59,373 bases of DNA from an uncultured Gammaproteobacteria bacterium (GTDB lineage Bacteria; Patescibacteriota; Patescibacteriia; Patescibacteriales; UBA12465): positions 16,029 through 75,401 of the forward strand of contig CAZZBQ010000001.1 in NCBI GenBank assembly GCA_964652745.1, written 5' to 3'. A program made the position numbers and the translations under genes. The first letter of the stretch is position 1; the number at the start of each line of letters is the position of its first letter. The notes under the pieces were generated by a model. The model was not told the origin of the DNA and did not search any database. It saw only the letters and a list, made by a program, of their open reading frames with translations. Below are positions 19,545-43,903 of this stretch, piece after piece.

Positions 19545-20912
19545 ATGCCCAGAAGGAAGAAGAGTACACCTGAAACATCAATTGTAAAGACAGAAAGAAA
19601 GAGCGATAAAACACCCGATAGACTTTTAGGAATGAAGGATTTTTCAGGCACTGAACAGATTTGTTTTGATTTGGCTCTAGAAAAAGCTAATAAGTTAGCA
19701 CAGCTGTATGGATTTTCTTCTGTCAGAACCCCAATATTAGAGAGTTTTGATTTATACAAAAAATCATCTCGTCATGATAGTGATAAAGAAATATACTTAG
19801 TTGATGGTGAGAAGAGTGAAAAAACGGTAATGCGTCCCGAGATAACTCAAGGAATAATTCGTTCTTATTTAGAAAATAGTTTACAGACGGAGATAACAAC
19901 CGCTCATCTGTTTTCTATTGGTTCTATTTTTCGTCGAGAAAAATTACAGAGCGGTCGTTATCGTGAATCAACTCAGTTTGATTTAGAAATTATTGGTGAA
20001 AAAAAGCCGATGGCTGAGGCTTTACTGATTATGATAGCTAACAATTTTTTTGAGGAGATGCAGGTTTCCGCACAGCTGCAAATAAATAGCTTGGGTGATG
20101 CGGAATGTCGTAAAAGCTATTGTACGAAATTATCTAATTTTTATAAGGAAAGAGGTAATCGCTCTAAATTATGTAATGCTTGTAAAAATAATTTAGGCAA
20201 AAACTCTTTAAGCCTATTGGACTGTAAAGAAGAGTCTTGTTTAAAATTACGCGAAGAAGCGCCACAAATTGCAGACTTCCTTTCAGATGCTAGTCGTGAA
20301 TATTTAGCTAAGACTTTAGAATTTTTAGATGAGCTTAATATTAGCTATAATTTTAATCCATATTTAGTTCGTGGCTTAAATTATTATAATGATATTGTTT
20401 TTGAGTTTTGGCCGGTTAATGATGACGGGGGTGTTGGACGTTTAGCGCTTGCTGGCGGTGGCCGCTATGACGGATTAATTGAAACTTTGGGCGGACAATC
20501 CATGCCGGCTGCTGGCATCGCAATTGGACTAGAAAGAGTTATCGGCCGCATTAAAGATAAGCAATCTTTGACAAATAAAACCGAACAAGATATAGTATTT
20601 ATTGCTCAGTTGGGTGATCAGGCAAAACTGAAAGCCTTGCAGCTATTTGAAGACTTGCGTAAAGCCGGTTTTAACGTAAGACAAGCGTTGGCTTCTGACA
20701 GTCTTAAGCTTCAAATTGAAGAAGCGACGGCCATGAAGGCAACAACTTGTTTAATATTAGGTAAAAAAGAAATAATGGACGGAACCATTCTTATGAGAGA
20801 TATGGATTCTGGTGCTCAAGAAACTCTAGTATTTAAGAAAGTTAAAGAAAGGTTGTCACGTAAGGACAGATATGATAAAAAACTAAGTCTTAGAAAGGGA
20901 GGTGTATACTAA
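19545..20912 (+). CDS. hisS: Histidine--tRNA ligase with a Lys-rich N-terminal extension
   Basis: Class II motifs including FSIGSIFRRE and AGGGRYDGL, plus a C-terminal anticodon-binding domain. The stop overlaps the rpsU start (TAATG). Confidence 0.92.
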   Translation: MPRRKKSTPETSIVKTERKSDKTPDRLLGMKDFSGTEQICFDLALEKANKLAQLYGFSSVRTPILESFDLYKKSSRHDSDKEIYLVDGEKSEKTVMRPEITQGIIRSYLENSLQTEITTAHLFSIGSIFRREKLQSGRYRESTQFDLEIIGEKKPMAEALLIMIANNFFEEMQVSAQLQINSLGDAECRKSYCTKLSNFYKERGNRSKLCNACKNNLGKNSLSLLDCKEESCLKLREEAPQIADFLSDASREYLAKTLEFLDELNISYNFNPYLVRGLNYYNDIVFEFWPVNDDGGVGRLALAGGGRYDGLIETLGGQSMPAAGIAIGLERVIGRIKDKQSLTNKTEQDIVFIAQLGDQAKLKALQLFEDLRKAGFNVRQALASDSLKLQIEEATAMKATTCLILGKKEIMDGTILMRDMDSGAQETLVFKKVKERLSRKDRYDKKLSLRKGGVY

Positions 20913-21142
20913 TGGCAGATTTTAAAAGAAAACCAGGAGAAAGTTTTGAAAGCTTTCTTAGAAAATTTAAGAAAGGCTTAAAAAACAGCAAAAGATTGGA
21001 AAAGGCCAGGTCTAAACAACATTTAGTGCCTAAAAAAACTAAGCGTCTTTTCAAAAAGCGGGCTTTATCAGGTTTAGCGCTTAGTAAGAAAAACGAATTA
21101 TTACGCAAAACTGGCAAGCTCCCCGAAACTACTAGAAGATAA
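20912..21142 (+). CDS. rpsU: 30S ribosomal protein S21
   Basis: 76-aa basic protein with ESFESFLRKFKK...RKTGKL, like S21. A strong SD GGAGGTG (20898-20904) lies 7 nt upstream of the ATG. Confidence 0.85.
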   Translation: MADFKRKPGESFESFLRKFKKGLKNSKRLEKARSKQHLVPKKTKRLFKKRALSGLALSKKNELLRKTGKLPETTRR

Positions 21143-21162: not shown

Positions 21163-21191
21163 AAAAAACGTCTCATTACGAGACGTTTTTT
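21163..21191. terminator. Bidirectional Rho-independent terminator between rpsU (+) and rel (-)
   Basis: AAAAAACGTCTC / GAGACGTTTTTT around a 5-nt loop. The A-run and T-run flanks allow function on both strands. Confidence 0.85.
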
Positions 21192-21211: not shown

Positions 21212-22678
21212 TTACTTGTTTATGCCAGGGATAAATCGTTTAATATTTTCTAGGGTTGATTTTTTGGCGTGTTGTTTAATTTGGTCGCGTGCACGCTTGG
21301 TTTTTACAAATTTTAGCCAGTCCTTATTTGGGTGTTGGCGGTTTTTTTCAATAATTATTTCTACCATATCACCATTTTTTAATTCTTGATCCAAACGTCC
21401 CAGTTTATCATTTATTAATACGCCAGAGGCTTTGTTGCCGACATTGCCATGGATAGCATAGGCAAAATCAATCGGGGTTGATTTTTCTGGTAGTTCAAAG
21501 ACATCACCTTTTGGAGAGAAGACGAAAATTCGGTCTCGAAAAATATCCATTTTAACATTTTTGACCAGCTCTGAAGTGTTGGTAATTTCTTTTTGAATAT
21601 CAACGATTTCTTTAATCCAACGCGGTTGCTGGTAATTATCGGTGCTACCTTTAGATTTGTAATACCAGTGGGCGGCAATACCATATAAAGCTTCTTCATG
21701 CATTTCTTTAGTTCGGATTTGAAATTCTGTTGGTTTTCCTTCAGGTCCAAAAATGGTTGTGTGTAAAGAACGATAGCCGTTTGGTTTAGGGACGGCAATA
21801 TAGTCTTTAAAGCGATTTGGTTTTGGCTTCCAAATAGTGTGGATAACACCTAGAACTTTGTAACAGTCATCAATGGTGGGCACAATAATACGCATGGCAA
21901 AGACATCATAAATTTCGTTGAATTTTCTGTCTTTTTCTTGCATTTTTTTAAAAATGCTGTATAAGTGCTTGAAGCGCGCTTCTATTTCATATTTGATTCC
22001 AGCTTCTTCGAGTTTTGGTTTTAAAATACCACGTACATTTTGGAAAAAACGCTGTCTTTCAACTTTTTTTTCAACTTCGTATTTATATTCTAATTCATTA
22101 AATTTTTCTGGATAAAGATGTTTGAAGCAAATATCCTCCATTTGCCACTTCAAGCGCTCAATACCTAGTAAGCCGGCAACGGGAGCGTATATCTCTAGGG
22201 TTTCGGCGGCTATCCTTCGTTTTTTATCGGGAGGTAGAGATTCTAAGGTGCGTAAATTATTTAGACGATCACAAAATTTAATAAAGATAACACGTAAATC
22301 GCTAGTCATGGCGAGAAACATTTTTTTTAGATTTTCTCTATAACGTTCAATGCCACGATATTTTATTTTACTTAATTTAGTTACACCGCTTACTAGGCTG
22401 GCAACTTCGGCGCCGAATTCCATTTCCACCTCTTCTATGGTTTTTTCAGTATCTTCAGGGACATCATGTAGAATTCCAGCTGCTACGGTTGGCAAATCGG
22501 CCCTAATTTCGGCAAGAATATAGGCGGTGTGTAGGGGGTGCTGGATATAAGGCTCGCCATTTTTTCTTAATTGTCCAGCATGAGCGACATCAGCAAAAAG
22601 AAAGGCTTTTTTTAATAGGTCGGCGTCTACTCCAGGGTTGTTGTCAATAAATTTTTTAATTATCCTTTCTATGGTCAT
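21212..22678 (-). CDS. rel: Short bifunctional-type RelA/SpoT homologue (HD hydrolase + synthetase + TGS, with no domains after TGS)
   Basis: HD region HPLHTAYIL...GILHDVPEDT, synthetase YRSLHTTI...EFQIRT, and TGS IFVFSPKGDVFELPEKSTPIDFAY. At 488 aa it ends about 45 aa after TGS. Confidence 0.92.
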   Translation of the reverse strand: MTIERIIKKFIDNNPGVDADLLKKAFLFADVAHAGQLRKNGEPYIQHPLHTAYILAEIRADLPTVAAGILHDVPEDTEKTIEEVEMEFGAEVASLVSGVTKLSKIKYRGIERYRENLKKMFLAMTSDLRVIFIKFCDRLNNLRTLESLPPDKKRRIAAETLEIYAPVAGLLGIERLKWQMEDICFKHLYPEKFNELEYKYEVEKKVERQRFFQNVRGILKPKLEEAGIKYEIEARFKHLYSIFKKMQEKDRKFNEIYDVFAMRIIVPTIDDCYKVLGVIHTIWKPKPNRFKDYIAVPKPNGYRSLHTTIFGPEGKPTEFQIRTKEMHEEALYGIAAHWYYKSKGSTDNYQQPRWIKEIVDIQKEITNTSELVKNVKMDIFRDRIFVFSPKGDVFELPEKSTPIDFAYAIHGNVGNKASGVLINDKLGRLDQELKNGDMVEIIIEKNRQHPNKDWLKFVKTKRARDQIKQHAKKSTLENIKRFIPGINK

Positions 22679-22771
22679 AAATAGTTTTTATTTTGGCATG
22701 CTTATGTTATAATAAAAATATAATATAGTATAGCATTAAAAGGAGTATTTTTAAAGTTCTCCTAAGAAAAA

Positions 22772-25435
22772 ATGTTGAAAAGAAAAAAGATAATTTTCGG
22801 CTTTTTTTTGGCATTAGTCGCCTTATTAGTCGCCAATATTTCTCAGGCGCAAGATTTTGGCGTTGACTCCATTGAAAGTACGATTGCTTTATCAAACAGC
22901 GACCCTCGAGCTATCGTTGGACGCATTATTCAGATTGTTCTAAGTTTGCTCGGCGTTATTACTCTTGGACTCATGATTTATGCTGGATTTCTTTGGATGA
23001 CATCGGGTGGCGAAGAGGAAAAAATACGAAGTGCGAAAAATATTTTAAAGAATGCAATTATTGGTTTAGTAATTATTCTCTCCTCTTGGGCAATAACAAC
23101 TTTTCTTCTTTCTAAATTGATGGGGGCTATTTCTGGGAATGGTTCAGATTTACCTAGTGGTAGTATTAGAGAAAATTTTAGTGTTGGCTTGGGGGCTATA
23201 GGGTCTTGTTCGGTACAAGATGTTTATCCGGAAAATAATCAAAAAGACGTTCCACGCAACACTTCTATTATTCTGACTTTTAAAGAAGAGATTGATTTAT
23301 CATCAGCTTGTGTTGATACTTCTGGTTCGGCCTGTGCTTGTGATAATGGCGCCTGCGCTCTTATTAATCCAAATAGTATTAGAATATATAAACAAGATTT
23401 GAATGATGCTTGCACCTCTTCTTGCCCTAGCCCTAATTCTAATGTTACTGACGTTTCGGTTGCCGTGTCAGCCGACAAGAGAACTGTAATACTTTCCCCG
23501 CTTAGTTATTTAGGAACCGCTGAAAACAACACAGACTACATAGTGAAAATTACTTCTGATTTTAAAAAAGCTGATGGCACTTCTATGTTTAGCACCTGTA
23601 GTGCTAATGAACTTATCTGGACTTTTGAAATTGGCTCTCGTTTAGATTTAACGCCGCCGCAAGTAGTTTCTAAATTTTTATTTCCTTTGCCCGATAACGC
23701 CAAAGATGTAGTTACTACCAGTGTTTCAGCTGCTAACGCTACAGCAGAAATTTTTGTAAATAGTTGTCCTAAAATATATAAGCCGGCGGCAGTAAACAAT
23801 GTTTCTCCTGAGGCGGAGGTTATTTTGAATTACCATGGAGTTATTAATCGCTTTATTGTTTCAGTGCCCGCAGACGAACCTAATCGTGCACAGCTTTTTA
23901 ATCTCAATACCAGCGCCTTATTAGGGGTGGCTGATTTTGATGCTGACAATAAAGTTATTTTTGATGGATATTTTAGTCTTAAAGTTGATAGTCATGAAGC
24001 CGGTAATTCGTGGGAGGTTGAGATAACTCCCGAACAGCTCGCTGATACCCTTACGGTTGGTAATATTAAATATTCTTTTGCGTCTACCGGAGAGAATAAT
24101 AACATTATTGTTAGAGAGGGTACTTGTAATGTTGATAATCAAGCCATGGATATTCAGGCTAAATTAAGTGGGCATCCTGATATTAATATTTCTCGTACGG
24201 GTAGCCGCGTTTCTTTAGAGGCTAAAGTTTCTGGTAGCGTTGCTAATAGTTTAATACTTAGCACAAGCAATTCTAGTGCTTTAGGGCTCACGGCTTTTTC
24301 TGGCGGGGCTGATGAAAAAATTTCTTATGTTATTAATGATAAGCGAGACGTTGCAATGAATGCGGTTGTTAAGTTTACTTTTAATGAACCAATGAACCCG
24401 GTTACCTTATCTGGTTCGGCTGCTGAAGTTTCTCCTTATTTGCGCTTAATTAATGCGGCTGGTGGAAATTCGTCAGGAGCAGCTTGTTCGGTAAATTCAG
24501 AGTGCCTTTCTTATAAGTGTGACGGTGGCACGTGTGTTGGTAATTATTTGAATGGACATTTCGCTATTTCTAATGGTTATAAGACAGTAGAGTTTATTTC
24601 TGATAATGAATGTGGAATTAATGGTTGTGGTGAAAAAATATATTGCTTGCCATCAAATAGTAACTTAGCTTTAGAGGTAAAAGCAGCTGGGCTAAAAACT
24701 TGCGCGAGCGATCAAGATTGTTCAGCTTCTAGTCCATATACATCGTGTGCCATGACTCCGCTTGGTTACCGTACCTGCCAAGATGCCGGTCAGCGTAATT
24801 ATCCCTTGGCTGATATTATTGCTATGAATGGCGTTACTGATACAGCATTTAATTCTTTGGACGGAAATAGAGATGCTTTAGCCGATGGCCCAATTTCTTA
24901 TTTTAATGAAAATAATGGGATCATTAGCAATCGTGATAGTTATCGTTTTTCATTTTTTGTTAATGATCAGAAAGAATTATCTTCGCCGCGTATAACCTCG
25001 ATTACTCCAGTCAATGGACAAACTGACATTACCACTTTAACCGATCCAGTGGAGATAACTTTTAATACCTTGATTATGTCCAGTACGCTGAAATCGGGTA
25101 GCACTGTTTTAGACGGCGCCCAGGGGCCAGTTGAACATAAATTTGTAAATTTAAAGAGCGCGGCTGCTAGTCCGCTTGGGTACTGGATATTATCAGAGGA
25201 TAAGGATGTTTCGCCTTTAGATGGCGTGACTGATTTAACGGTTGCCAGCATTAAGCATTCTGTATTTTCAGAATCTCTTTCCTATATTGCTCAGACTGGG
25301 TCGGGATTAAAAGATGTTTATCAGAATTGTTTTAAACCAAGTTCAGGACCTAGTTGTGAGGCAACTTGGGATAATCCATCTTGTTGTTTCGGGTTACCTT
25401 CTAATAATTTAGATGAAAATGGCAACTGCCAATAA
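22772..25435 (+). CDS. Giant surface protein 1: signal peptide, VirB2/TrbC-like pilin hairpin, Big_5/SbsA-like Ig domains and Cys-rich C-terminal region
   Basis: 887 aa. Signal ...VANISQAQ. Two hydrophobic helices flank TSGGEEEKI. Segments such as VQDVYPENNQKDVPRNTSIILTFKEEID look like Big_5 domains. About 26 Cys by hand count. Confidence 0.85.
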   Translation: MLKRKKIIFGFFLALVALLVANISQAQDFGVDSIESTIALSNSDPRAIVGRIIQIVLSLLGVITLGLMIYAGFLWMTSGGEEEKIRSAKNILKNAIIGLVIILSSWAITTFLLSKLMGAISGNGSDLPSGSIRENFSVGLGAIGSCSVQDVYPENNQKDVPRNTSIILTFKEEIDLSSACVDTSGSACACDNGACALINPNSIRIYKQDLNDACTSSCPSPNSNVTDVSVAVSADKRTVILSPLSYLGTAENNTDYIVKITSDFKKADGTSMFSTCSANELIWTFEIGSRLDLTPPQVVSKFLFPLPDNAKDVVTTSVSAANATAEIFVNSCPKIYKPAAVNNVSPEAEVILNYHGVINRFIVSVPADEPNRAQLFNLNTSALLGVADFDADNKVIFDGYFSLKVDSHEAGNSWEVEITPEQLADTLTVGNIKYSFASTGENNNIIVREGTCNVDNQAMDIQAKLSGHPDINISRTGSRVSLEAKVSGSVANSLILSTSNSSALGLTAFSGGADEKISYVINDKRDVAMNAVVKFTFNEPMNPVTLSGSAAEVSPYLRLINAAGGNSSGAACSVNSECLSYKCDGGTCVGNYLNGHFAISNGYKTVEFISDNECGINGCGEKIYCLPSNSNLALEVKAAGLKTCASDQDCSASSPYTSCAMTPLGYRTCQDAGQRNYPLADIIAMNGVTDTAFNSLDGNRDALADGPISYFNENNGIISNRDSYRFSFFVNDQKELSSPRITSITPVNGQTDITTLTDPVEITFNTLIMSSTLKSGSTVLDGAQGPVEHKFVNLKSAAASPLGYWILSEDKDVSPLDGVTDLTVASIKHSVFSESLSYIAQTGSGLKDVYQNCFKPSSGPSCEATWDNPSCCFGLPSNNLDENGNCQ
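22853..23125 (+). other. VirB2/TrbC-like pilin hairpin module (copy 1)
   Basis: aa 28-118: DPRAIVGRIIQIVLSLLGVITLGLMIYAGFLWMTSGGEEEKIRSAKNILKNAIIGLVIILSSWAITTFLL, i.e. helix, short polar loop, helix after a signal peptide. Confidence 0.65.
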
Positions 25436-25444
25436 TATAAATTT

Positions 25445-28400
25445 GTGTCTAAGAAAATATTTAAACAACTCGCCTCTTTAGTAGTAGTTCTGGGAGGAAT
25501 TTTTGCTTTCCGTTTAGTTTTTGCTCAGACTTTTGGGGTGGATGAAGTATCTTCTGGGTTAGGAGGCTCTCTTTCTGAAAGCGATCCGCGTGCTATTTTT
25601 ACGCGGATTATTAATGTTACTCTTGGTCTTCTGGGTGTTATTGCGCTAGGCCTTATTATTTATGCCGGTTTTTTGTGGATGACTTCTGGGGGCGAAGAGG
25701 AAAAGATATCCAAGGCTAAAAAGTTGTTAGTCAGTGCGGTTATTGGCTTAGGTATAATTCTTTCTTCTTGGGCGATTGCTTCATTTGTTTTGGATAGATT
25801 AAGTGATGCTACTAATGGTACAAATGGTGACAGTGGTTGCATTGATGGTACGACACGGTCTTGCGGTTGTAATGGGTCAATGACTTGTATTTCTGGTTCT
25901 TGGAGTGGTTGTGTTGGCTCGGACTGCTCTAGCTATTCGGCGGAACAATATTGCGACTCCAATTCTATTTTAGGCGGTTGCCAGGCTAGTGATAGCATCT
26001 GCTCTCCTCAGGATTACTGTGCTACTGATTGTACTTGCCAACCTAAGGGGGGGGCAGGTGATTCTTGTGATGCTGACAGCGATACGCCAACTTGTGATGC
26101 TAACAATAGTCTTTGTTCTGAATTTTTAACTTGTAATCTAGATACCTGTACTTGTTCGGGGCCGCCAGTCATTACTGGAATTAGTCCGGAAGGAGGATTT
26201 TGTCAAGAAAATATAAATAAATCTTGCCAACAAGATTCTGACTGTAATACTGTCTGTAATCAAGCTGCTCCTAATGGTGCCGTTGATAATTTTTTAACAA
26301 TTTTTGGTAGAAGTTTTGGTGAATATGATCCAGCTTCTAGTCAAGTTATATTTTTAGGAGGCAATCGTTTGGGGCGCAATCCTTCAGATATTAATCCAAT
26401 TTGTATAGACTCTTGGAGTGATAAACAAATAATTATTGCCATCCCAAGTGGAGTTAGTAGTGGTGGAATTAAAGTTATTAGACAAGACGGCCAAGAAGAT
26501 TCTACTAATAATGACTATGGTCCTATAATTGCTGATTTTGTCGCCAACACAATAGTGCGCCCAGGTTTGTGCCGTCTTACTCCAGAAATTGGAGGTTTGG
26601 GTACGGCCGCTACCTACCAAGGCAACAGTCTTTATGCCGGTAGAGCATATTTTGGTAACTACCAAACAAATGTTCAGGCTCTTGATTCTAGCTTTAGTCA
26701 TCCTAGCGGTTTATCTGGCACAGCCGCCGTTCCTAATATTAGGTCAGGCGAAGCTACTAGTTTCGTAATTAGCACTTTAGGCGGAAATCAAGAAAGAAGT
26801 AATTATTTATATTTTGATAAAGAAGCCGACCCTAAAGATGGTCCTTTTATAGTTTCATTTTCGCCAACAACTGGAAGATCAGGGCAATACGTTACTATTA
26901 CTGGTAGCGGATTTGGTGGTGCACGTGGTAATTCAAAAGTTTATTTTGGTGGCGCTGAAGCTGATTATTCTTTCCCGCCGGTTTGTGCCAGTTCTGTTTG
27001 GAGCGATAATCAGATAATTGTGAAGGTACCGGAAGCAGCCGCTAATGGCTATAATTATATTCGTGTAGAATTAGCTAGTGGCGTAATAGATACTAGTCAA
27101 TTAAATCCTAATTCATTTAACGTTGATAGTAGTTTATCTTTGAAGACAAGTTTGTGTAAGATTGATCCTGCTCAAGGAGCAGCTTCTACTCCTGTAAAAT
27201 TGTATGGTGAATATTTTGGCCCAACCGGGCAAGCTGGTTTAGTTCAGTTTAGTGTTAACAAAAATATTTCCGGTGTTATTAATCAGGAAAATGGAGCTGA
27301 TATTATTACCGCTTCTGTTCCCGAGGGAGCAGTTACTGGCCCGGTAAAGGTAGTTAAAAATAATGAATGGGGCAATGATTTAAATTTTGAAGTTGGTAGC
27401 TGCGCTGGTAATGATAGTTGCCCTGGCAGTCAGGTTTGTTGCCCAGGAAATACTTATAAGAAAGGGCGCTGTGTGGCCAGTCTTAATGATTGTTTAATTG
27501 ATATTCCTAATTCCGTTTTTGAATGGAATTTTAGCACTGGCTATACTCAGAGAGATATCGTAGATCCAACTGAAAGTTGTTCCACGCTAGCCGATTACGC
27601 CGGTGCTTGTCAAGTAGATTCTTTCTGCCCTAATACAACCGGAGTTTGCTCGCCTTATGCGGGTAATAGTAAAAAAGTAGTAGGTAGTTGTGATTATTCT
27701 TGTGCTTCTGTGACTGGTTGTGACGCCTTCCAATCATCTTGCTTTTACGACGCTTCAATTAATAAGTGTGTTAAGTCAGGTGCCGACGGTTTATGTAGTT
27801 TATCAGAATCTAGAACATTTAGTTTGGGTGAACAAACTATTCAAGCCACCGTTACTTGTAACCAAGATGGTAATTGGCAATTTACCACACTTACCTCTTG
27901 TCCCAGTGGTTGGACAAAGGGAATAAATAATATTTGTACAGACGAAAGTTCTGTTTGCAGTTTATGTAAAGATGGCTTGACTTGTGAAAGAGTTGGGTCT
28001 GATGGTCGTTGTGTTTCTCAGGGAGTTTGTCCAACTGGCTCATTGTGTGAAGATAATCCCGATATGGCGGCTGCCGATAGATGTATTGCTTATGATTTGC
28101 CTAGTTGTGATTGCTGCTGTCGGATTGGTAATAGCGCACAAGATTGTTGCGCTCCTTTAGAGTGTTCTGGCACCTGTGGAACTGATCAGGCAGATGATGG
28201 TGCTGGTTTAGGACAGTGTTCAGGTTGCGCCAATGTTGGTAGCACCCAAGCAGAACATGACGCGGCTTGTAATTGTTCAGGCAAGAGTGGACAATATTGC
28301 AGTATTACTTCGGAAAATCCTCAAGGGGTGTGTACTGATTGTACTGGGCTGCAAACACAATCAGATTGTGCTGATCACAGCGCGGCCTGTTGTTTTGATG

Positions 28401-36332: not shown

Positions 36333-36334
36333 TT

Positions 36335-37372
36335 ATGTTTAGAAATGATAAAAATCAATTGAAAAAGGGTGATAGGGTGGTTAACAAAGTTGATCAAGAT
36401 TTGATAGTGCATAATATGCCTAACAAATCTAGGTTAAGCGGTTCTTCTGTAGCAGCTATTACTAATCAAGACTTTTCCGGTTCAAACGTAAAACAGCACA
36501 ATGTTAAATCGATTGGTGCTATTATTATTGTATTGGGAGTTATTCTGGTTGGCGCCTTGGTTTACTTAAGTTATCGTTTTGTTATTAAGCCGCAAGCAGA
36601 AAAAACTCCAGTTGCTCAAGTAAATAAGCCTGCGTCTATTTCGCAGACAACTGAAACTGAATTAACTGATGCACCTATTGTTGCCACATCTTCAGCGGTT
36701 GATATTGAAACGATTGATCCAATTAGCGCAACTACAAGCCAGAGCGTTGCTACTACTTCCGAAGTAGCAATTAATGAAGAGGATATGCCGGAAGAGGGGC
36801 TAGTCGAGGAAGTGCTTTGGACGCCGATTTTAGATACTGATGGTGACGGTTTAACTGATGATGAGGAGTCAGCTATGGAAACTAATGTTTCAGAAATTGA
36901 TACTGACAAGGATGGGTATTTAGATTTAGCAGAAATAAAAAGCGGCTATAATCCGCTTAATACTGGACGCCTAAATGAAAGCACATCTTTGGCGATTCAT
37001 AATGATATGGTTAGTAAATTTTCAATTTTATATCCAGTTTCATGGATTAAGCAGTCGTTAAATAGCGGTTATACTTTAATTATTTCAGCGCCAGATAATT
37101 CTTTATTTCAAGTCTCCGTTCAGGATAATCCCCGCAATCAAGTGATTGCTGATTGGTATGCGGAAACATTTTCTTCAGAAACAGATACTTACAGCAGTTT
37201 TAAAAACGGAGTTGGCTGGGAGGGAATATCAAGTAAAGATGGATTAGATTTTTATTTAACAGATATTGAGAAGAATAATATTTATGTTATCTCTTATATA
37301 CCAGTTATTAGTACGCGGTTAGCATATTTGAATATTTATCAAATGATGATTGATAATTTTAAAATCCAGTAG
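36335..37372 (+). CDS. Membrane-anchored protein with TSP3-like repeats and an uncharacterised C-terminal globular domain
   Basis: Trimmed to ATG 36335. One TM (IGAIIIVLGVILVGALVYLSY), Thr/Ser-rich linker, DTDGDGLTDDEE and DTDKDGYLDLAE. The architecture is paralogous to 35439..36191. Confidence 0.75.
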   Translation: MFRNDKNQLKKGDRVVNKVDQDLIVHNMPNKSRLSGSSVAAITNQDFSGSNVKQHNVKSIGAIIIVLGVILVGALVYLSYRFVIKPQAEKTPVAQVNKPASISQTTETELTDAPIVATSSAVDIETIDPISATTSQSVATTSEVAINEEDMPEEGLVEEVLWTPILDTDGDGLTDDEESAMETNVSEIDTDKDGYLDLAEIKSGYNPLNTGRLNESTSLAIHNDMVSKFSILYPVSWIKQSLNSGYTLIISAPDNSLFQVSVQDNPRNQVIADWYAETFSSETDTYSSFKNGVGWEGISSKDGLDFYLTDIEKNNIYVISYIPVISTRLAYLNIYQMMIDNFKIQ

Positions 37373-37393
37373 ATAACAATATTAAAGTTATTT

Positions 37394-37425
37394 AAAAAAC
37401 ACCGCATAAATAAGCGGTGTTTTTT
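37394..37425. terminator. Bidirectional Rho-independent terminator between the surface-protein block (+) and clpP (-)
   Basis: AAAAAACACCGC / GCGGTGTTTTTT around an 8-nt loop. Confidence 0.85.
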
Positions 37426-37443
37426 ATTTTTATTATTAGAATT

Positions 37444-38022
37444 TTATTTTTTAATAATTTTATCGATAATACCGTACTTCAAAGCTTCATCAGCTGACAT
37501 GAAATTATCGCGGTCGCTATCTTTTTCCACGGTTGCTTCTTTTTGTTTAGTATGAAAAGCAAGAATTTTATTCATTTTCGCCTTGGTCTTCAAAATATGT
37601 TCAGCACGAATTTTAATGTCAGAAGCTTGGCCTTCTGCGCCACCCATAACTTGATGAATCATTACTTCGCTATTAGGCAGAGCAAAGCGTTTGCCTGGGG
37701 CGCCAGCTGCTAATAAAACTGAAGCCATAGAGGCGGCTAAACCGACACAAATAGTGGAAACATCAGATTTAATGTATTGCATAGTGTCGTAAATTGCCAA
37801 GCCAGCACTAACTGAGCCGCCAGGGGAATTGATGTAAAATTTAATATCTTGGTCCTTATTTTGAGCATCTAAAAACAAGAATTGAGCAATTACAATATTG
37901 GCGACATGGTCATCTATGGGCTCTCCCAAAAAGATGATCCTATCTTTTAAAAGGCGGGAATATATGTCGTAGGCACGTTCTACGTGCCCCTCTTTTTCAA
38001 TAACTGTAGGTATTAATGGCAT
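37444..38022 (-). CDS. clpP: ATP-dependent Clp protease proteolytic subunit
   Basis: [38 protein letters not shown] (active Ser) and MIHQVMGG. Confidence 0.96.
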
Positions 38023-40803: not shown

Positions 40804-43137
40804 ATGAACTCTCTTATTTCTCTAAAAATAAATAAATCTAGGGTTTTAGCTTTAGCTATAGAAACTACTTATTTGCTGACTGTTTTTTTAATTCCAGTTT
40901 GGTTTGCTTATTTTTTTCCAGGGTTTAATCTATTCGAACTTAGTAAGTTCGCTATTTTTCGGTTTTTAGTTTGGTTTTTGCTAGTTCTAACCGCCGTACG
41001 TTTCATTTTTTTTCGGAAAGAATTAAACTTTTCCTTTTTGAGATTAGTTAAATTATTTTTTATCCCTTTTTTGTTTATTGCCGGTTTAGCAGTTTCTTTA
41101 TTTTTTTCTATTGATTTACAGCAAAGCTTTTTTGGCTCCTATGATCGCCAAGAGGGTTGGATAAGTCAGGCAATGTATTTTGTGTGGTCAATATTATTGA
41201 CAGTTAATTTATTATGGCCATCGAAAAATCATAAGGAGTCTAATTATCGCACATTAGTTAATAAGCGAGTAGAGAATTTAGTTTTTACTATGGTATTATC
41301 AACATCAATAGTTGCTTTATATGGAGTTTTACAAATTATGGGCTTTGATTTTTTAGATTGGCCAGAGCAGCCGTATTTAACCGGTAGAACTTTGTCTTCT
41401 TTAGGACAACCAAATTTCCTCGCCTCCTTTTTATTATTAGGTATGCCGCTAACTGCTTATTTAATGTTTCTTGCAAAACGTTTTTTTGTTAAATCTGCCT
41501 ATTTTATTTTGTTAGTTTTACAAATAGCTTGTTTATTTTTTACAGCCAGCCGTGGGGGGCTGTTAGCCTTTTTTGCAATGATTGTGCTGTTAGTAGCATA
41601 TCTCTTTTTTACAGCCAACTTATCTAAAAAAATTAAGATTGGCTTAGTAAGCTCGGTTGTATTTTTAGGAATTGTTGGTTTAGCGGCCTTAGAGCTAGTA
41701 ACTCCGGGAAGAATTAAGGAATCATTTGATTTTACGCGCGGAAGTCTAGCTTCACGGGTTTTCTTTTTTCAGGCCTCAGCTGATGCTATTTTAGAGCGAC
41801 CGTTATTTGGATATGGACTAGAAAATGGTGGCGAAGTGTTTATTAAATACTATGAGCGTGATTGGGGAATTTATGGAGATGTTAGCTCTAATACTGATAG
41901 AGCACATAATATATTTTTAGATATTTTGATTTCTGCTGGTTTTTGGGGTTTGTGTTTGCTTGTGATGTTTTATTATTACTATTTTCGCCTTAGTTGGCAG
42001 GAGATAAAAAGCGGAACAAGTAAACCCTTAATGTTGGCTTTATCTTTAGGTGTATCGGCTTATTTAATTTCTTTGTTTTTTAGTTTTGCAATTGTTTCTG
42101 GTGAAATCTATTATTGGTCATTTTTAGCAATATTGCTTGCATTAATTGCTAGCCAAGCTAGTGATAATAAACAGAGCGTAGAGTTAAAAAAGGAATCCAA
42201 GATTGTAGAGTGGCTTGTTATTGCTTTCTCAATTATAATTATTTTATTTTCTAGTTGGCAAATGATGCGCAGTGTCCAGGTTTTAATGGCGGATTATTAT
42301 AAAAACAGAATTTTTATTGCCGTAGAAAATAGAGAATTTATTGAGGCGGTTGTTCTGCGTTCAGAAATAATTAATTTAAATATTAATCCGGTCTTAAAAG
42401 ATCATTATGATTATTATTTGGGCTCACAATTAGTTAATTATTGTACCTATGGCAGCTTCCAGGATTTAGCTGAAGAAAGAATTGTTAAAGCAAAACTAGA
42501 AACAATTGTTAAGTCGCTTCCCGATTATGGTTATGAAAATATTTTATTAAAAGCAAATGCGGCTGCTTGTTTAAACAATGAATTAGAGGCGGATAAATAT
42601 TTTAATATCTTAGCACAGCTGGCTCCAGAGTGGCCTCGGGCTTATTTGGAAAGAGGTTATTATTTAGCAAAACAGGGTAGGTTGGTTGATGCGGAAAAAT
42701 ATTATCAATTAGCTGATATCAATTTACCAGATCCGGATAGTGATAAAATTAATTTGTCGCATCGTCGTGTAGTCGCTAATTATAAATTTTTAATGTATGC
42801 TAGCTTAGCAGATGGCTATTTTAAACAAGGTAATTATGTGCGCGCTGAAATGTTTTTCCAGAATGCTTTCCGCTATCGGCCAGAAGATTATTCAATATTT
42901 AAAAAAATTGCCGACTGCTATTATTTACAGGGGGATTTAAATAATGCTATTAAATATATCCGCCGTGGCTTAGCCTCTAATCCAAGCGATGTCAGTTGGC
43001 ACATTGCTTTAGCGGTTTTATATTTTGAAAATAATAACATTTCTGAAGCCTTGGCTCGATTAGATGAGGCGGAAAAAGTTGCTCCAGCTAGTTCAATTTC
43101 AGAAATAGAAAGTTTACGTTTAGATTTTAATAAATAG
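40804..43137 (+). CDS. O-antigen ligase (Wzy_C) family membrane protein fused to C-terminal TPR repeats
   Basis: Polytopic N-terminal two-thirds with FTASRGGLLAF and RAHNIFLDILISAGFWG. The C-terminal 250 aa or so has TPR-like repeats (YYLAKQGRLVDAEKYY, YFKQGNYVRAEMFF, YYLQGDLNNAIKYI). Confidence 0.85.
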   Translation: MNSLISLKINKSRVLALAIETTYLLTVFLIPVWFAYFFPGFNLFELSKFAIFRFLVWFLLVLTAVRFIFFRKELNFSFLRLVKLFFIPFLFIAGLAVSLFFSIDLQQSFFGSYDRQEGWISQAMYFVWSILLTVNLLWPSKNHKESNYRTLVNKRVENLVFTMVLSTSIVALYGVLQIMGFDFLDWPEQPYLTGRTLSSLGQPNFLASFLLLGMPLTAYLMFLAKRFFVKSAYFILLVLQIACLFFTASRGGLLAFFAMIVLLVAYLFFTANLSKKIKIGLVSSVVFLGIVGLAALELVTPGRIKESFDFTRGSLASRVFFFQASADAILERPLFGYGLENGGEVFIKYYERDWGIYGDVSSNTDRAHNIFLDILISAGFWGLCLLVMFYYYYFRLSWQEIKSGTSKPLMLALSLGVSAYLISLFFSFAIVSGEIYYWSFLAILLALIASQASDNKQSVELKKESKIVEWLVIAFSIIIILFSSWQMMRSVQVLMADYYKNRIFIAVENREFIEAVVLRSEIINLNINPVLKDHYDYYLGSQLVNYCTYGSFQDLAEERIVKAKLETIVKSLPDYGYENILLKANAAACLNNELEADKYFNILAQLAPEWPRAYLERGYYLAKQGRLVDAEKYYQLADINLPDPDSDKINLSHRRVVANYKFLMYASLADGYFKQGNYVRAEMFFQNAFRYRPEDYSIFKKIADCYYLQGDLNNAIKYIRRGLASNPSDVSWHIALAVLYFENNNISEALARLDEAEKVAPASSISEIESLRLDFNK

Positions 43138-43138
43138 T

Positions 43139-43903
43139 ATGGATTATTTTTTTATTATAATTGCTGGTTTACTAGGCTTAATAGTTGGTAGTTTTTTAAA
43201 TTGTTTAATTTGGCGCATTTATAAAGAAGAAAGCATAATGGGCCGGTCTTATTGCCCGAAGTGTTCTAAACAAATTGCTTGGTATGACAATATTCCACTT
43301 TTAAGTTTTATTATTTTACGTGGTCGTTGCCGCCATTGCCAACAGAAAATATCTTGGCAATATCCCTTAGTGGAATTTTTTACTAGTCTTTTATTTGTCC
43401 TATCTTTTATTTCAGTTTCTGACACACCTGACATGCCTTTACTTTTGGCGCGCAATTGGCTATTAATTATTACTTTTATAACAGTGTTTATATATGATTT
43501 GCGCTGGCAGATGGTGCCGATGATTATTATCTGGCCAATGATTGCGGTGGCAGCCGGAATTAGTATTTTTCTTGGTTATCCTTGGCAGGAAGTATTCTTG
43601 TTTGGTGTGGCTGGCACTTCTTTTTTTCTGATTCAGTATTTTGCAACCGCTAAACGGGGAATTGGTGAGGGAGATATTTGGCTTGGATTATTAATTGGCG
43701 TCACTTTTCCTGAGGGTGGATTATTAGCACTAGCTTTAATTCTGGCTTATTTTGTTGGCGCAATTGTTAGTGTTGTTTTGTTGTTTGACCGTCAACGGGG
43801 ATGGAAGTCAAAAATAGCACTAGGTCCATTTTTGTCTTTTGGTGCTATTATTACCCTAATTTACGGAAGCGAGATTCTGGCTTGGTATTTAAGTCTGTTT
43901 TAG
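43139..43903 (+). CDS. pilD: Prepilin peptidase (A24 family, with N-terminal Cys-rich domain)
   Basis: CPKCSKQIAWYDNIPLLSFIILRGRCRHCQQKISWQYPLVE, plus catalytic Asp regions (IYDLRWQ and GIGEGDIWLG). Confidence 0.9.
   Translation: MDYFFIIIAGLLGLIVGSFLNCLIWRIYKEESIMGRSYCPKCSKQIAWYDNIPLLSFIILRGRCRHCQQKISWQYPLVEFFTSLLFVLSFISVSDTPDMPLLLARNWLLIITFITVFIYDLRWQMVPMIIIWPMIAVAAGISIFLGYPWQEVFLFGVAGTSFFLIQYFATAKRGIGEGDIWLGLLIGVTFPEGGLLALALILAYFVGAIVSVVLLFDRQRGWKSKIALGPFLSFGAIITLIYGSEILAWYLSLF

What the first reader, a model, noticed from the sequence alone, without database searches (positions are those of the whole stretch)
22772..37372. Discrete 14.6-kb block of giant cysteine-rich surface proteins: candidate undescribed cell-surface or host-attachment apparatus
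Seen in sequence: the block sits between two minus-strand housekeeping genes (rel and clpP), and a bidirectional terminator lies at each end (21163-21191 and 37394-37425). It is a single + strand array of proteins of 887, 1928 and 1265 aa separated by only 9 and 8 nt. After them come a 94-aa anchored protein, two membrane-anchored proteins with DxDxDG..D..E repeats and a possible 37-codon membrane peptide. I recognise no enzymatic motif in any of them. They are built from display or adhesin modules: Big_5/SbsA-like Ig, IPT/TIG, FN3-like and several kinds of Cys-rich repeat. About a quarter of an otherwise minimal, housekeeping-dominated window is therefore spent on envelope display. Inference: this is a surface apparatus for attaching to a partner cell or substrate, which fits a small-genome episymbiont lifestyle. 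I do not know the particular combination (VirB2-like anchors, a pilin-head-like domain, eukaryote-like Cys repeats and TSP3 accessory proteins) as a described system.
Basis: partly seen in the sequence, partly recalled or inferred. Interest (0 to 1): 0.85.

Follow-up and report, generated by a model that had tools for sequence, protein, structure and literature searches.

The report
Conserved surface-protein operon of Falkowbacteria
A seven-gene block that every examined relative of this tiny-genome (Falkowbacteria-type) bacterium keeps at the same chromosomal spot encodes two giant proteins held in the membrane by a pilin-like hairpin, a secreted partner with a rapidly changing tip, and four small membrane proteins, and is most likely a cell-surface structure for binding a partner cell, though what it binds has never been tested.

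Summary
ORFs, sizes, 9- and 8-nt gaps, flanking rel and clpP, and most domain calls were reproduced. These include T4SS_pilin/VirB2-like N-termini, Big_5, TIG and TSP3; no enzyme domain was found.

The block is a vertically inherited operon, not an island. In 47 of 48 species-level loci holding both rel and clpP, g1, g2, g3, g5 and g6 lie between them in the same order. GC3 matches the flanks. The 37-codon ORF is a real, conserved seventh gene.

g1 is uniformly conserved, with 25 of 26 Cys kept and no indels. g3 has a conserved 750-aa base and a hypervariable Cys-rich C-terminus. g1 and g2 share only the N-terminal module, which is up to 62% identical to stand-alone ~130-aa CPR pilins.

Best reading (confidence 0.5): a membrane-anchored, disulfide-rich Ig-domain surface complex whose variable g3 tip binds a partner cell or substrate. 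Rivals are an S-layer-like coat, a T4SS-dependent pilus structure, and merely co-located surface proteins.

VirB2-like pilin arrays and large adhesin-like proteins are already known in Patescibacteria. This fused architecture and fixed operon were not found described in the searchable literature. Verdict: new variant of a known kind, interest 0.55. The pilin-head domain is unproven, the eukaryote-like Cys-repeat claim is unsupported, and function is inferred only.

The parts
22679..22771 (.). Divergent intergenic region between rel (-) and g1 (+). It is the probable promoter region of the operon and contains TGTTATAAT, an extended -10-like element, at about 22706-22714.
   Evidence: Read directly from the sequence. 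The consensus scan gives only weak matches here. The promoter assignment is inference.
22772..25435 (+). g1, 887 aa. It has a signal peptide, a VirB2/T4SS_pilin-type two-helix membrane hairpin (aa ~45-120) and a ~760-aa acidic ectodomain made of a chain of Ig-like beta-sandwiches. The ectodomain holds 26 Cys and two Big_5 domains.
   Evidence: Pfam gives PF18895 at 40.8 bits and Big_5 at 2.1e-15. The AF2 model has pLDDT 73.7, helices at 45-76 and 82-120, and is all-beta afterwards. The top Foldseek hit is the S-layer protein SbsC, 4uj6, E 7.5e-9. Across 60 orthologues there are no indels and 25 of 26 Cys are conserved at >=90%. The ectodomain finds 802 cluster representatives, nearly all 850-1000 aa with the same architecture.
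22772..23149 (+). VirB2-like (T4SS_pilin) module of g1, aa 1-126.
   Evidence: It is 56% identical to aa 3-129 of g2. It is up to 62% identical, E down to 6.6e-39, to stand-alone 95-195-aa PF18895 pilins. It is one of the two most conserved 50-aa stretches of g1, at 70%.
25445..31231 (+). g2, 1928 aa. It has a signal peptide, a VirB2-like hairpin (aa ~50-117) and a 1800-aa ectodomain. The ectodomain runs Cys-rich region, TIG domains (~280-640), a long Cys-rich region (~640-1240), Big_5 (1246-), and FN3-like domains near the C-terminus. It holds 126 Cys.
   Evidence: Pfam gives PF18895 at 31.1 bits, TIG at 1.4e-11, Big_5 at 1.7e-7 and fn3 below the cut-off. 75 of 126 Cys are conserved at >=90%, and indels are confined to aa ~700-1200. 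Orthologues are 1464-2318 aa long. There is one 81-aa internal duplication, at 28470 and 28713.
31240..33489 (+). g3 conserved base, aa 1-750. It consists of a signal peptide, an invariant beta domain (aa 43-130), small Cys knots, a helix-plus-sheet domain (aa ~190-347, possibly pilin-like), three Ig-like domains (358-649) and a Cys-rich junction.
   Evidence: The alignment shows invariant columns throughout. The AF2 model has pLDDT 77.7. Foldseek returns tandem-Ig proteins such as titin, cadherins, SbsB and PrgB. Identity per 50-aa window across 63 orthologues is mostly 42-70% over aa 51-750, dipping to 28-33% in three windows. T2SSG hits are weak only. No membrane anchor other than the signal peptide was found.
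33490..35037 (+). g3 hypervariable C-terminal region, aa 751-1265. It holds 52 Cys and differs in length and domain content between species.
   Evidence: Identity is below 20% with 23-97% gaps across orthologues. Against the closest relative it drops to 35% where the rest of the protein is 71-86%. Orthologues are 930-1679 aa and carry different C-terminal Pfam domains: Beta_helix, He_PIG, CarboxypepD_reg-like and ephrin_rec_like. This copy has no Pfam hit.
35079..35363 (+). g4, 94 aa. It has an N-terminal membrane anchor and a ~60-aa acidic ectodomain with a conserved PEFM..EK..L..DSKIQVLKRD..G..VYKIIR motif.
   Evidence: Transmembrane prediction and translation. Orthologues follow g3 in most loci.
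35439..36191 (+). g5, 250 aa. It has a cytoplasmic N-tail with an invariant VDDIFAETD motif, one transmembrane helix (65-93), a variable T/E-rich linker and Ca-binding TSP3 repeats.
   Evidence: TSP3_bac scores 2e-15, 56.7 bits. Topology is, motif and conservation. A possible own promoter, TTGTCG-17-TATAAT, lies at 35383-35411.
36219..36332 (+). gs, a small membrane protein, 37 aa here and ~60-70 aa in relatives. It has a cytoplasmic (L)H(T/S)MP(K/Q)T motif and a C-terminal transmembrane helix.
   Evidence: An ORF with the same motif and helix lies between g5 and g6 in nearly every locus. In this window the motif occurs only in gs and g6.
36329..37372 (+). g6, 347 aa. It has a cytoplasmic N-tail with a DLIVHNMP motif, one transmembrane helix (56-87), a linker, TSP3/EF-hand-like DxDxDG repeats and a ~130-aa C-terminal domain with weak PsbP-like similarity.
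   Evidence: TSP3_bac scores 22.3 bits, just below the cut-off of 25. It is a paralogue of g5, 31% over 170 aa, E 4.5e-8. The motif is present in 42 of 60 orthologues. PsbP scores E 0.02 only.
37393..37426 (.). Bidirectional intrinsic terminator shared by g6 (+) and clpP (-).
   Evidence: It has a 13-bp stem with A and T runs on both sides and is the top hit of the terminator scan.
21212..22678 (-). rel (RelA/SpoT family), the conserved left neighbour.
   Evidence: Pfam gives HD_4, RelA_SpoT and TGS. It is syntenic in all loci that reach it.
37444..38022 (-). clpP, the conserved right neighbour. In relatives it is followed by secD, secF, a Wzy_C/PglL-like TPR protein and the prepilin peptidase.
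   Evidence: Pfam and synteny.

Best explanation
The block is a vertically inherited seven-gene envelope operon of Falkowbacteria-type Patescibacteria (GTDB class ABY1). It most likely builds a membrane-anchored, disulfide-rich surface complex for binding an external target, probably a partner cell.

Proposed mechanism.
- g1 and g2 are exported by Sec and stay in the membrane through an N-terminal two-helix hairpin homologous to the small VirB2-like 'T4SS pilins' of these bacteria.
- Their long acidic ectodomains are chains of Ig-like domains stiffened by Cys knots. They project through the wall as stalks.
- g3 is secreted without an anchor. It docks on this base through its conserved first ~750 residues and displays a fast-evolving, module-swapping Cys-rich C-terminus as the specificity-determining tip.
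- g4, g5, gs and g6 are small bitopic membrane proteins. They have conserved cytoplasmic motifs and extracellular Ca-binding TSP3 repeats, and they form or regulate the base.

Shown: gene structure, domain content, predicted topology, conservation pattern, synteny and native origin.
Inferred: that the proteins form one complex, that g3 docks on g1/g2, that the Cys form disulfides, and that the tip binds a host or partner.
For: 1. Co-inheritance. 47 of 48 species-level loci with both flanks carry g1, g2, g3, g5 and g6 in the same order and strand between rel and clpP. The 48th has a divergent g5. 205 species genomes encode a g3 relative. GC3 is 26-28%, as in the flanks, so the block is native.
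2. Tight coupling. The gaps are 9 and 8 nt here and similarly short in relatives.
3. Extracellular topology. Signal peptides, hairpins or single transmembrane helices are present, and the ectodomains have pI 4.0-5.1.
4. Cysteines. All three Cys counts are even (26, 126, 74) and the Cys are largely conserved: 25 of 26, 75 of 126 and 23 of 74. Patescibacteria are enriched in an MdbA-like disulfide oxidoreductase with VKOR (bioRxiv 10.1101/335083).
5. Adhesin-like architecture. The proteins are Big_5, TIG, PKD-like and FN3-like beta-sandwich chains. Foldseek finds cadherins, titin, PrgB Ig domains, RTX adhesin repeats and S-layer proteins.
6. Base-plus-variable-tip pattern in g3. It is seen at long and short evolutionary distances, and orthologues carry different C-terminal domains.
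7. The anchor is constrained. The VirB2-like hairpin is one of the most conserved parts of g1 and g2, at 64-70%. That fits specific protein contacts in the membrane.
8. Context from other Patescibacteria. T4SS-type pilins and Ig/PKD secreted proteins are among the most highly expressed secreted products of archaeon-parasitising Paceibacteria (PMC10936435). Adhesin-like surface proteins are essential in Southlakia (PMC10633639).
Against: - There is no experimental, expression or imaging evidence for these genes.
- No known ligand-binding family was recognised in the g3 tip.
- Variable outer parts are also typical of S-layer proteins and of phage-receptor avoidance, so variability does not prove adhesion.
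- No lifestyle or host is known for Falkowbacteria.
- A few loci (L024, L072, L078) hold a g3-like gene without recognisable g1/g2 upstream. g3 may therefore work with other partners.
Confidence: 0.5

Rival explanations
1. An S-layer-like envelope coat. g1 and g2 act as membrane-anchored stalks and g3 as the outer canopy. Together they form the regular surface layer seen on ultra-small groundwater bacteria, with a protective or structural role rather than a binding role.
For: - The best structural match of g1 is the S-layer protein SbsC (4uj6, E 7.5e-9, probability 1.0). Sap and SbsB S-layer proteins also appear among the matches.
- Big_5 is the SbsA-type Ig domain.
- The ectodomains are acidic, pI 4.3-5.0, and 81-188 kDa. 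That is mostly inside the 40-170 kDa, pI 4-6 range given for S-layer proteins (PMC4232325).
- The block is universal, single-locus and core-genome in this lineage.
- An anchored conserved part plus a variable exposed part is also the S-layer pattern.
- S-layers have been reported for some Patescibacteria (PMC13293708).
Against: - Bacterial S-layer proteins have few or no sulfur-containing residues (PMC4232325). g2 and g3 have 6.5% and 5.8% Cys.
- No SLH or other wall-binding module was found.
- The Foldseek TM-scores are 0.11-0.14. The match therefore reflects a generic chain of Ig domains rather than a shared architecture.
- Three large and four small proteins is more complex than typical bacterial S-layers.
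Confidence: 0.22
2. A T4SS-dependent structure. g1 and g2 are true VirB2-type subunits. The VirB4 machinery encoded elsewhere extracts them from the membrane and builds them into, or onto the tip of, a conjugative-type pilus, so that the pilus carries its own giant adhesins.
For: - The N-terminal modules are bona fide PF18895 members. They are up to 62% identical to stand-alone ~130-aa pilins and strongly conserved.
- Falkowbacteria genomes encode VirB4 and TrsD. They also carry VirB2-type genes that are not next to virB4 (PMC12102498, Tables S1 and S3).
- Pilin arrays are essential in Southlakia, and reviewers raise the possibility of a pilus in these monoderms (PMC12857230).
- A T4CP-like ATPase lies 13 kb downstream, at 50628-52520.
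Against: - No VirB4, VirB6, VirB3 or VirB8 gene lies in this 59-kb window or in the conserved flanks of 48 loci.
- A 760-1800-aa ectodomain on every subunit is hard to reconcile with helical VirB2 packing.
- T4CP homologues are near-universal in the phylum and usually unlinked to virB4, so that gene is weak evidence.
- The operon includes proteins with no T4SS counterpart: g3, the TSP3 proteins g5 and g6, and the small proteins g4 and gs.
Confidence: 0.13
3. No common apparatus. The genes are independent surface or envelope proteins, for example wall-spanning spacers or polymer- and nutrient-binding proteins. They stay together only because of shared transcription or export, without forming a complex.
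For: - No interaction evidence was obtained.
- The ectodomains of g1, g2 and g3 are unrelated by BLAST.
- g5-g6 may have their own promoter.
- g3-like genes occur without g1/g2 in a few loci.
- Glycan-binding roles have been proposed for FN3- and lectin-type surface proteins in Southlakia.
Against: - Order and position are invariant across lineages in which flanking housekeeping proteins have diverged to 55-70% identity.
- The gaps are 8-9 nt.
- g3 lacks any anchor of its own yet has a 750-aa region conserved as strongly as g1. That fits a docking partner.
- gs and g6 share a cytoplasmic motif.
Confidence: 0.12

Closest known systems
VirB2-like 'T4SS_pilin' (PF18895) proteins and pilin arrays of Patescibacteria, such as the essential six-pilin array in the Southlakia epibionticum T4SS locus
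   Same: The N-terminal ~125 residues of g1 and g2 have a signal peptide and two hydrophobic helices with a short charged loop. They score above the Pfam threshold. They are up to 62% identical to stand-alone pilins. Two adjacent paralogues form a small array.
   Different: The known pilins are ~95-195 aa and often sit next to virB4. Here the module is fused to 760- and 1800-aa ectodomains. It sits in a housekeeping neighbourhood without T4SS core genes and is accompanied by five other conserved genes.
Geobacillus S-layer proteins SbsA, SbsB and SbsC, and Bacillus anthracis Sap
   Same: They are chains of Ig-like (Big_5-type) domains forming an acidic, ~80-190-kDa extracellular protein. SbsC is the best Foldseek match of g1, and SbsB appears among the matches of g3.
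   Different: The present proteins have no SLH or SCWP-binding domain. They are anchored in the membrane by a hairpin instead of in the wall. Their high Cys content contrasts with 'few or no' sulfur residues in S-layer proteins. The TM-scores are low. Lattice formation is unknown.
Large Ig/FN3/cadherin-like surface adhesins of episymbiotic Patescibacteria: the >1500-aa proteins of Absconditicoccaceae, the >5000-aa FhaB-domain proteins of Patescibacterium danicum, and the essential adhesins of Southlakia
   Same: They are large secreted or membrane-bound proteins made of adhesion-type beta-sandwich modules in small-genome bacteria, and have been proposed to mediate host contact.
   Different: The P. 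danicum proteins have no detectable full-length homologues and were suggested to evolve rapidly. g1 and g2 instead are length-stable, moderately conserved core genes at a fixed locus. The variability here is confined to the g3 tip.
Two-component archaeal S-layers (Sulfolobus SlaB stalk plus SlaA canopy). This comparison rests on my own knowledge of that system.
   Same: A membrane-anchored stalk protein is combined with an anchorless outer protein encoded next to it.
   Different: There is no sequence or fold evidence for a relationship. The organism is bacterial and has a peptidoglycan wall. The comparison is an analogy, not a tested one.

Membership tests
VirB2/TrbC-type T4SS pilin (Pfam PF18895 T4SS_pilin) | Profile match above the curated threshold | tested here: met
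   g1 scores 40.8 bits and g2 31.1 bits against a cut-off of 26.6. TrbC PF04956 and NCBIfam Mbov_0395 pilin-like hits are below their cut-offs.
VirB2/TrbC-type T4SS pilin (Pfam PF18895 T4SS_pilin) | Signal peptide followed by two hydrophobic helices joined by a short polar loop | tested here: met
   Hydropathy. The AF2 model has helices at 45-76 and 82-120.
VirB2/TrbC-type T4SS pilin (Pfam PF18895 T4SS_pilin) | Small protein consisting essentially of the hairpin | tested here: not met
   g1 is 887 aa and g2 1928 aa. The stand-alone relatives found are 84-195 aa.
VirB2/TrbC-type T4SS pilin (Pfam PF18895 T4SS_pilin) | Encoded with T4SS core genes (VirB4, VirB6, VirB3, VirB8) | tested here: not met
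   None is present in the 59-kb window or in the conserved flanks of related loci. The only related gene is a T4CP-like ATPase 13 kb away. VirB4 exists elsewhere in Falkowbacteria genomes according to PMC12102498.
VirB2/TrbC-type T4SS pilin (Pfam PF18895 T4SS_pilin) | Polymerises into an extracellular pilus | not testable with these tools
   This needs imaging or biochemistry.
Bacterial S-layer protein (SbsA/SbsC type) | Ig-like (Big_5) domain chain with structural similarity to solved S-layer proteins | tested here: inconclusive
   Big_5 scores 2.1e-15. The Foldseek match to SbsC has E 7.5e-9 and probability 1.0 but TM-scores of 0.11-0.14.
Bacterial S-layer protein (SbsA/SbsC type) | Cell-wall anchoring module (SLH or SCWP-binding domain) | tested here: not met
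   No such Pfam or NCBIfam hit was found. The anchor is a membrane hairpin.
Bacterial S-layer protein (SbsA/SbsC type) | Few or no sulfur-containing residues; weakly acidic; 40-170 kDa | tested here: not met
   Cys content is 2.9-6.5%, against the criterion in PMC4232325. The pI fits for all three ectodomains. The mass fits for g1 and g3 but not for the 188-kDa g2 ectodomain.
Bacterial S-layer protein (SbsA/SbsC type) | Self-assembly into a 2-D lattice covering the cell | not testable with these tools
   This needs cryo-EM or in-vitro assembly.
Bacterial TSP3 Ca-binding repeat proteins (PF18884) | DxDxDGxxDxxE repeats matching the profile | tested here: met
   g5 scores 56.7 bits against 25. 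g6 scores 22.3 bits, just below the cut-off, but has visible DTDGDGLTDDEE and DTDKDGYLDLAE motifs and is a paralogue of g5.
Type IV pilin / T2SS pseudopilin globular domain (for g3 aa ~190-347) | Class III signal peptide and hydrophobic N-terminal helix cut by the prepilin peptidase | tested here: not met
   No G-F/M-T/S-L-I/L-E motif occurs in any frame of the window. The domain is internal to g3.
Type IV pilin / T2SS pseudopilin globular domain (for g3 aa ~190-347) | Profile or fold similarity to the pilin head (long helix packed on a beta-sheet) | tested here: inconclusive
   T2SSG hits 3 of 22 orthologues, with best E 0.082. There is no PDB profile hit. AF2 shows helix 192-220 followed by strands. 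The whole-model Foldseek search was dominated by the Ig domains.
Diversity-generating retroelement target | Template and variable repeat pair plus a reverse transcriptase nearby | tested here: not met
   No such repeat pair was found, and no reverse transcriptase is present in the window.
Horizontally acquired genomic island | Atypical composition, mobility genes, patchy distribution | tested here: not met
   GC3 equals the flanks. There is no integrase or tRNA at the borders. The locus is the same in 47 of 48 relatives.

The most novel reading that the evidence does not exclude
The VirB2-like hairpin of g1 and g2 is not a passive anchor. It oligomerises, or is handled by the VirB4 machinery encoded elsewhere. 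The operon would then build a previously unseen kind of envelope organelle in wall-bearing monoderm Patescibacteria. It could be a pilin-based fibre that carries its own giant Ig/Cys-knot adhesins, or a membrane-rooted two-tier surface lattice. Either would give the first molecular identity to the surface layers and appendages imaged on ultra-small groundwater cells.
Probability: 0.17. Interest if true: 0.8.

Novelty: new variant of a known kind. Interest (0 to 1): 0.55.

Why it matters
Patescibacteria make up a large share of bacterial diversity, yet outside the Saccharibacteria almost nothing is known about how they contact other cells. In the ABY1/Falkowbacteria lineage no host is known at all.

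This operon offers a defined and testable candidate for their surface organelle.
- It takes about 1.5% of a ~1-Mb genome (14.6 kb against the 977-kb complete relative).
- It is kept at one locus in every relative examined.
- It has a clear division into conserved anchor proteins and a variable tip.

The conserved ectodomains could serve as antigens for sorting cells and their attached partners, an approach suggested in PMC11665869. The variable g3 tips could be used to search for ligands. The finding also shows that the VirB2-like 'T4SS pilin' module of this phylum is used as a fusion anchor far from any T4SS locus. This matters for surveys that count every PF18895 hit as a pilin.

Tried and rejected
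- Exact look-up of window proteins g1 and g3 in the contig index found nothing under those sequences. A near-identical 16-kb Logan contig was found through P0001.
- Cluster look-up gave no names.
- Sequence searches of g1, g2 and g3 against PDB chains gave only marginal Ig-domain hits.
- Foldseek of g1 against viral structures gave only generic SbsA-like Ig hits. This gives no support for a phage tail-fibre origin.
- Pilin-head test for g3: Pfam on 22 orthologues, a PDB profile search and prepilin-motif scans of the window and 82 loci were weak or negative. The claim is left open.
- Ephrin-receptor-like or other named Cys-rich repeats: no Pfam family at E<=1 in this window's g2 or g3. Rejected as stated.
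- Horizontal transfer or an island, suggested by the higher G+C of the block: rejected. The excess lies in codon position 2 and comes from amino-acid composition. GC3 equals the flanks and the locus is syntenic in relatives.
- DGR-driven variation of g3: no template/variable repeats and no reverse transcriptase.
- Internal tandem repeats: none by TRF and none by self-BLAST.
- LPXTG or sortase anchoring of gs: only sub-threshold NCBIfam hits. Rejected.
- RNA elements in the block: none.
- Loci L024, L072 and L078 were examined as possible counter-examples to co-conservation. They carry a g3-like gene in another context, and L072 may be chimeric. They do not overturn the 47 of 48 result.

Full report
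OBSERVATION

The block is exactly as described. Seven + strand ORFs lie between rel (21212-22678, -) and clpP (37444-38022, -):
- g1, 22772-25435, 887 aa
- g2, 25445-31231, 1928 aa
- g3, 31240-35037, 1265 aa
- g4, 35079-35363, 94 aa
- g5, 35439-36191, 250 aa
- gs, 36219-36332, 37 aa
- g6, 36329-37372, 347 aa

The gaps between g1, g2 and g3 are 9 and 8 nt. A strong bidirectional terminator follows g6 at 37393-37426. It lies beyond rel, between the 3' ends of a 76-aa gene and rel. The left edge of the block is therefore the divergent rel/g1 intergenic region, which contains a TGTTATAAT element.

The rest of the window is housekeeping: gyrA, mscL, rmuC, uvrD-like, ruvB, queA, lepB, hisS, secDF, ftsA/Z, nrdDGR, ftsEX and others.

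DOMAIN CONTENT

- T4SS_pilin (PF18895) is above threshold at the N-termini of g1 and g2.
- Big_5 is found in g1 and g2, and TIG in g2.
- Sub-threshold fn3 appears in g2 and weak PKD/Big_9 in g3.
- TSP3_bac is strong in g5. It is just sub-threshold in g6, which is a paralogue of g5.
- No enzymatic family appears in Pfam or NCBIfam.

The Cys-rich stretches match no Pfam family at E<=1, so 'eukaryote-like' repeats are not supported for this copy. The 'pilin-head' domain of g3 gets only weak T2SSG hits in 3 of 22 orthologues.

TOPOLOGY AND STRUCTURE

g1 and g2 have a signal peptide and then two long hydrophobic helices. The AF2 model of g1 places them at 45-76 and 82-120. After the hairpin comes an all-beta ectodomain. 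The two proteins share only this N-terminal module, at 56% identity over 127 aa.

That module is a close relative of free-standing 95-195-aa PF18895 pilins, with up to 62% identity and E down to 6.6e-39. g1 and g2 are therefore pilin-plus-ectodomain fusions.

g3 has only a signal peptide and no anchor. Its modelled first 760 residues (pLDDT 77.7) are:
- a beta domain
- small Cys knots
- a long helix packed on strands
- three Ig-like domains

g4 is a signal-anchored 60-aa ectodomain. g5 and g6 are N-in single-pass proteins with a variable T/E-rich linker and Ca-binding repeats.

All ectodomains are acidic, with pI 4.0-5.1. The Cys counts of g1, g2 and g3 are all even: 26, 126 and 74.

Foldseek returns chains of Ig domains. 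For g1 the top hit is the S-layer protein SbsC (E 7.5e-9, TM 0.11-0.14). For g3 the hits are titin, cadherins, SbsB, PrgB Ig domains and RTX adhesin repeats. These hits show the kind of architecture, not membership of a family.

DISTRIBUTION AND SYNTENY

g1 has hundreds of full-length relatives, 48-80% identical and 870-921 aa long. They are annotated 'pilin' or 'Ig-like domain-containing protein' from Falkowbacteria or the Patescibacteria group. Its ectodomain alone finds 802 representatives of 50%-identity clusters. Nearly all are 850-1000 aa, with the match beginning at residue ~135-160.

A genome scan with a g3 alignment found relatives in 205 species genomes. Most records that name a taxon are Candidatus Falkowbacteria or unclassified Patescibacteria.

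Among the 80 loci fetched, 48 contain both rel and clpP. In 47 of these, g1, g2, g3, g5 and g6 lie between them in the same order and orientation. The 48th has a divergent g5. secD, secF, a Wzy_C/PglL-like TPR protein and the prepilin peptidase follow clpP in the same way. The set includes the complete 977-kb chromosome CP066698.1.

Median identity to the window is 87% for ClpP, 77% for Rel, 67% for SecD, 50% for g1, 47% for g2, 43% for g3, and 37-38% for g5 and g6.

GC3 of g1-g3 is 26-28%, the same as in neighbouring genes. The higher overall G+C of the block comes from codon position 2, that is, from the Cys/Gly/Ser/Ala/Thr-rich composition. The block is native core genome, not an island.

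CONSERVATION PATTERN

Across about 60 orthologues:
- g1 is uniformly conserved, has essentially no indels and keeps 25 of 26 Cys.
- g2 keeps 75 of 126 Cys, with indels confined to the central Cys-rich part.
- g3 is conserved up to residue ~750. Beyond that it falls to under 20% identity with 23-97% gaps.

The same g3 break is visible against the closest relative: 35% identity at residues 800-900 against 71-86% elsewhere.

g3 orthologues range from 930 to 1679 aa. They carry different C-terminal Pfam domains: beta-helix, He_PIG, CarboxypepD_reg-like and ephrin_rec_like.

The VirB2-like hairpin is among the best-conserved 50-aa windows of g1 and g2, at 64-70%.

No DGR-type repeats or tandem repeats explain the variability.

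THE SMALL GENES

The 37-codon ORF is a real gene. An ORF of ~60-70 aa lies between g5 and g6 in nearly every locus. It carries the motif LSLxLH(T/S)MP(K/Q)T...KKW and a C-terminal transmembrane helix. The window's copy has a shorter N-terminus.

A related motif, DLIVHNMP, sits in the cytoplasmic tail of g6 in 42 of 60 orthologues. The motif occurs nowhere else in the window.

g5 has an invariant cytoplasmic VDDIFAETD, and g4 has a conserved ectodomain motif. Conserved cytoplasmic motifs suggest contact with intracellular partners. This is inference.

INTERPRETATION

What is shown is a seven-gene, vertically inherited envelope operon of Falkowbacteria-type Patescibacteria (GTDB class ABY1). It contains two pilin-hairpin-anchored giant ectodomain proteins, one anchorless secreted protein with a conserved base and a hypervariable tip, and four small bitopic proteins.

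The most economical mechanism is a surface complex. g1 and g2 would be stalks rooted in the membrane, g3 would dock on them and present a variable binding tip, and the Ca-binding small proteins would form or regulate the base.

Disulfide bonding of the Cys-rich parts is plausible. Patescibacteria are enriched in an MdbA-like oxidoreductase with VKOR (bioRxiv 10.1101/335083).

Partner-cell binding fits what is proposed or shown for other members of the phylum:
- Adhesins and a T4SS with a pilin array are essential in Southlakia (PMC10633639 and PMC12857230).
- T4SS pilins and Ig/PKD secreted proteins are among the most expressed secreted products of archaeon-parasitising Paceibacteria (PMC10936435).
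- Large adhesion-domain proteins are noted in Absconditicoccaceae and in Patescibacterium danicum.

None of this tests the present genes. I put 0.5 on this reading. I am about 0.85 confident that the products form a cell-surface structure, and less than that for adhesion as its purpose.

RIVALS

An S-layer-like coat (0.22) is supported by the SbsC and SbsB structural matches, by size and pI, and by universality. Against it stand the high Cys content, since bacterial S-layer proteins have few or no sulfur residues (PMC4232325), the lack of any wall-binding module, and the number of components.

A T4SS-dependent pilus structure (0.13) is supported by the genuine and strongly conserved VirB2-type module. 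It is also supported by the presence of VirB4/TrsD elsewhere in Falkowbacteria genomes, where VirB2-type genes are often 'not near VirB4' (PMC12102498, Tables S1 and S3). Against it, no T4SS core gene lies in the window or in the conserved flanks, and such large fusions fit poorly into VirB2 helical packing. The T4CP-like ATPase at 50628-52520 belongs to a class that is near-universal in the phylum and usually unlinked to virB4.

Independent co-located proteins (0.12) cannot be excluded without interaction data. The invariant order, the 8-9-nt gaps, the anchorless but conserved g3 base and the shared gs/g6 motif all speak against it. A few loci (L024, L072, L078) hold a g3-like gene in another context.

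NOVELTY

The building blocks are known: VirB2-like pilins and pilin arrays in Patescibacteria, and Ig/FN3-type surface proteins proposed as adhesins.

Three things I could not find described in six full-text searches or in the papers read:
- the fusion of the pilin module to 760-1800-aa ectodomains
- the fixed seven-gene operon at a housekeeping locus across a whole lineage
- the conserved-base, variable-tip partner protein

The published T4SS survey would have counted such proteins simply as VirB2 hits. I rate the block a new variant of a known kind, with interest 0.55. It is a well-defined and testable candidate for the surface organelle of a lineage with no known host, but its function is inferred and the general idea is not surprising to specialists.

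Noticed in passing
window 36219-36332 and 36329-36500; loci L003-L082 between the g5 and g6 orthologues: A short cytoplasmic motif, (L/I)x(L/V)H(T/S/N)MP, placed ~10-40 residues before a transmembrane helix, is shared by the small gene gs and the N-tail of g6. It occurs nowhere else in the window. gs looks like a free-standing copy of the g6 tail-plus-helix module. I know of no function for the motif.
   Followed up: partly
window 40804-43137 and 8994-10301: There are two Wzy_C (O-antigen ligase-like) membrane proteins. The first also has a weak PglL_A hit and C-terminal TPR repeats. It is conserved next to secDF and the prepilin peptidase (43139-43903) in all relatives. It could be an O-oligosaccharyltransferase for pilins or for the Ser/Thr-rich surface proteins of the block.
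   Followed up: no
window 50628-52520: A T4SS coupling-protein-like ATPase (TrwB_AAD_bind, TraG-D_C) carries a treble-clef zinc finger. It lies 13 kb downstream of the block, among housekeeping genes and without other T4SS genes nearby.
   Followed up: partly
window 20912-21142: A 76-aa, very basic protein with no Pfam hit at E<=1e-3 is 74-93% identical across relatives. It may be a ribosomal protein such as bS21, but this was not tested.
   Followed up: no
window 23700-24330 (g1 aa ~310-520): The central domain of g1 is modelled with very high confidence (pLDDT ~90) yet has no Pfam family. It contains a conserved stretch, TVG..Y.F.....NNI.V......QA..IQAKLSGHPDI.V.R.G..V.LTAKV.G..GN.I.L, that reminded me of flagellin 'IN'-type motifs. 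That resemblance comes from memory and was not tested.
   Followed up: no
window 28470-28510 and 28713-28753 (g2): This is the only internal DNA repeat in the giant genes. It is an 81-aa-spaced duplication encoding ...DYGYCGYYNC / ...DAGYCAYYNC within the Cys-rich region.
   Followed up: no
L072 3128-5086 and 8819-10213: In one Falkowbacteria MAG contig the region upstream of the g3 orthologue holds a protein ending in what looks like a Bacteroidota T9SS-type C-terminal sorting tail (a resemblance by eye, not tested). A class II aminoacyl-tRNA-synthetase-like gene sits between g4 and g5. The contig may be chimeric or rearranged.
   Followed up: partly
L024 9899-13915: A g3-like protein (1009 aa) is followed by a 325-aa Cys-containing TSP3 protein. 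No g1 or g2 lies next to them; a stand-alone 124-aa PF18895-type pilin sits 8 kb upstream. The g3 base module is therefore also used in another gene context.
   Followed up: partly
record titles: Many of the related genome records are titled 'uncultured Gammaproteobacteria bacterium' (MAG TPA assemblies), one 'Bacillota bacterium' and one 'Saccharimonadales'. All carry the same Falkowbacteria-type locus, so these labels look wrong.
   Followed up: no
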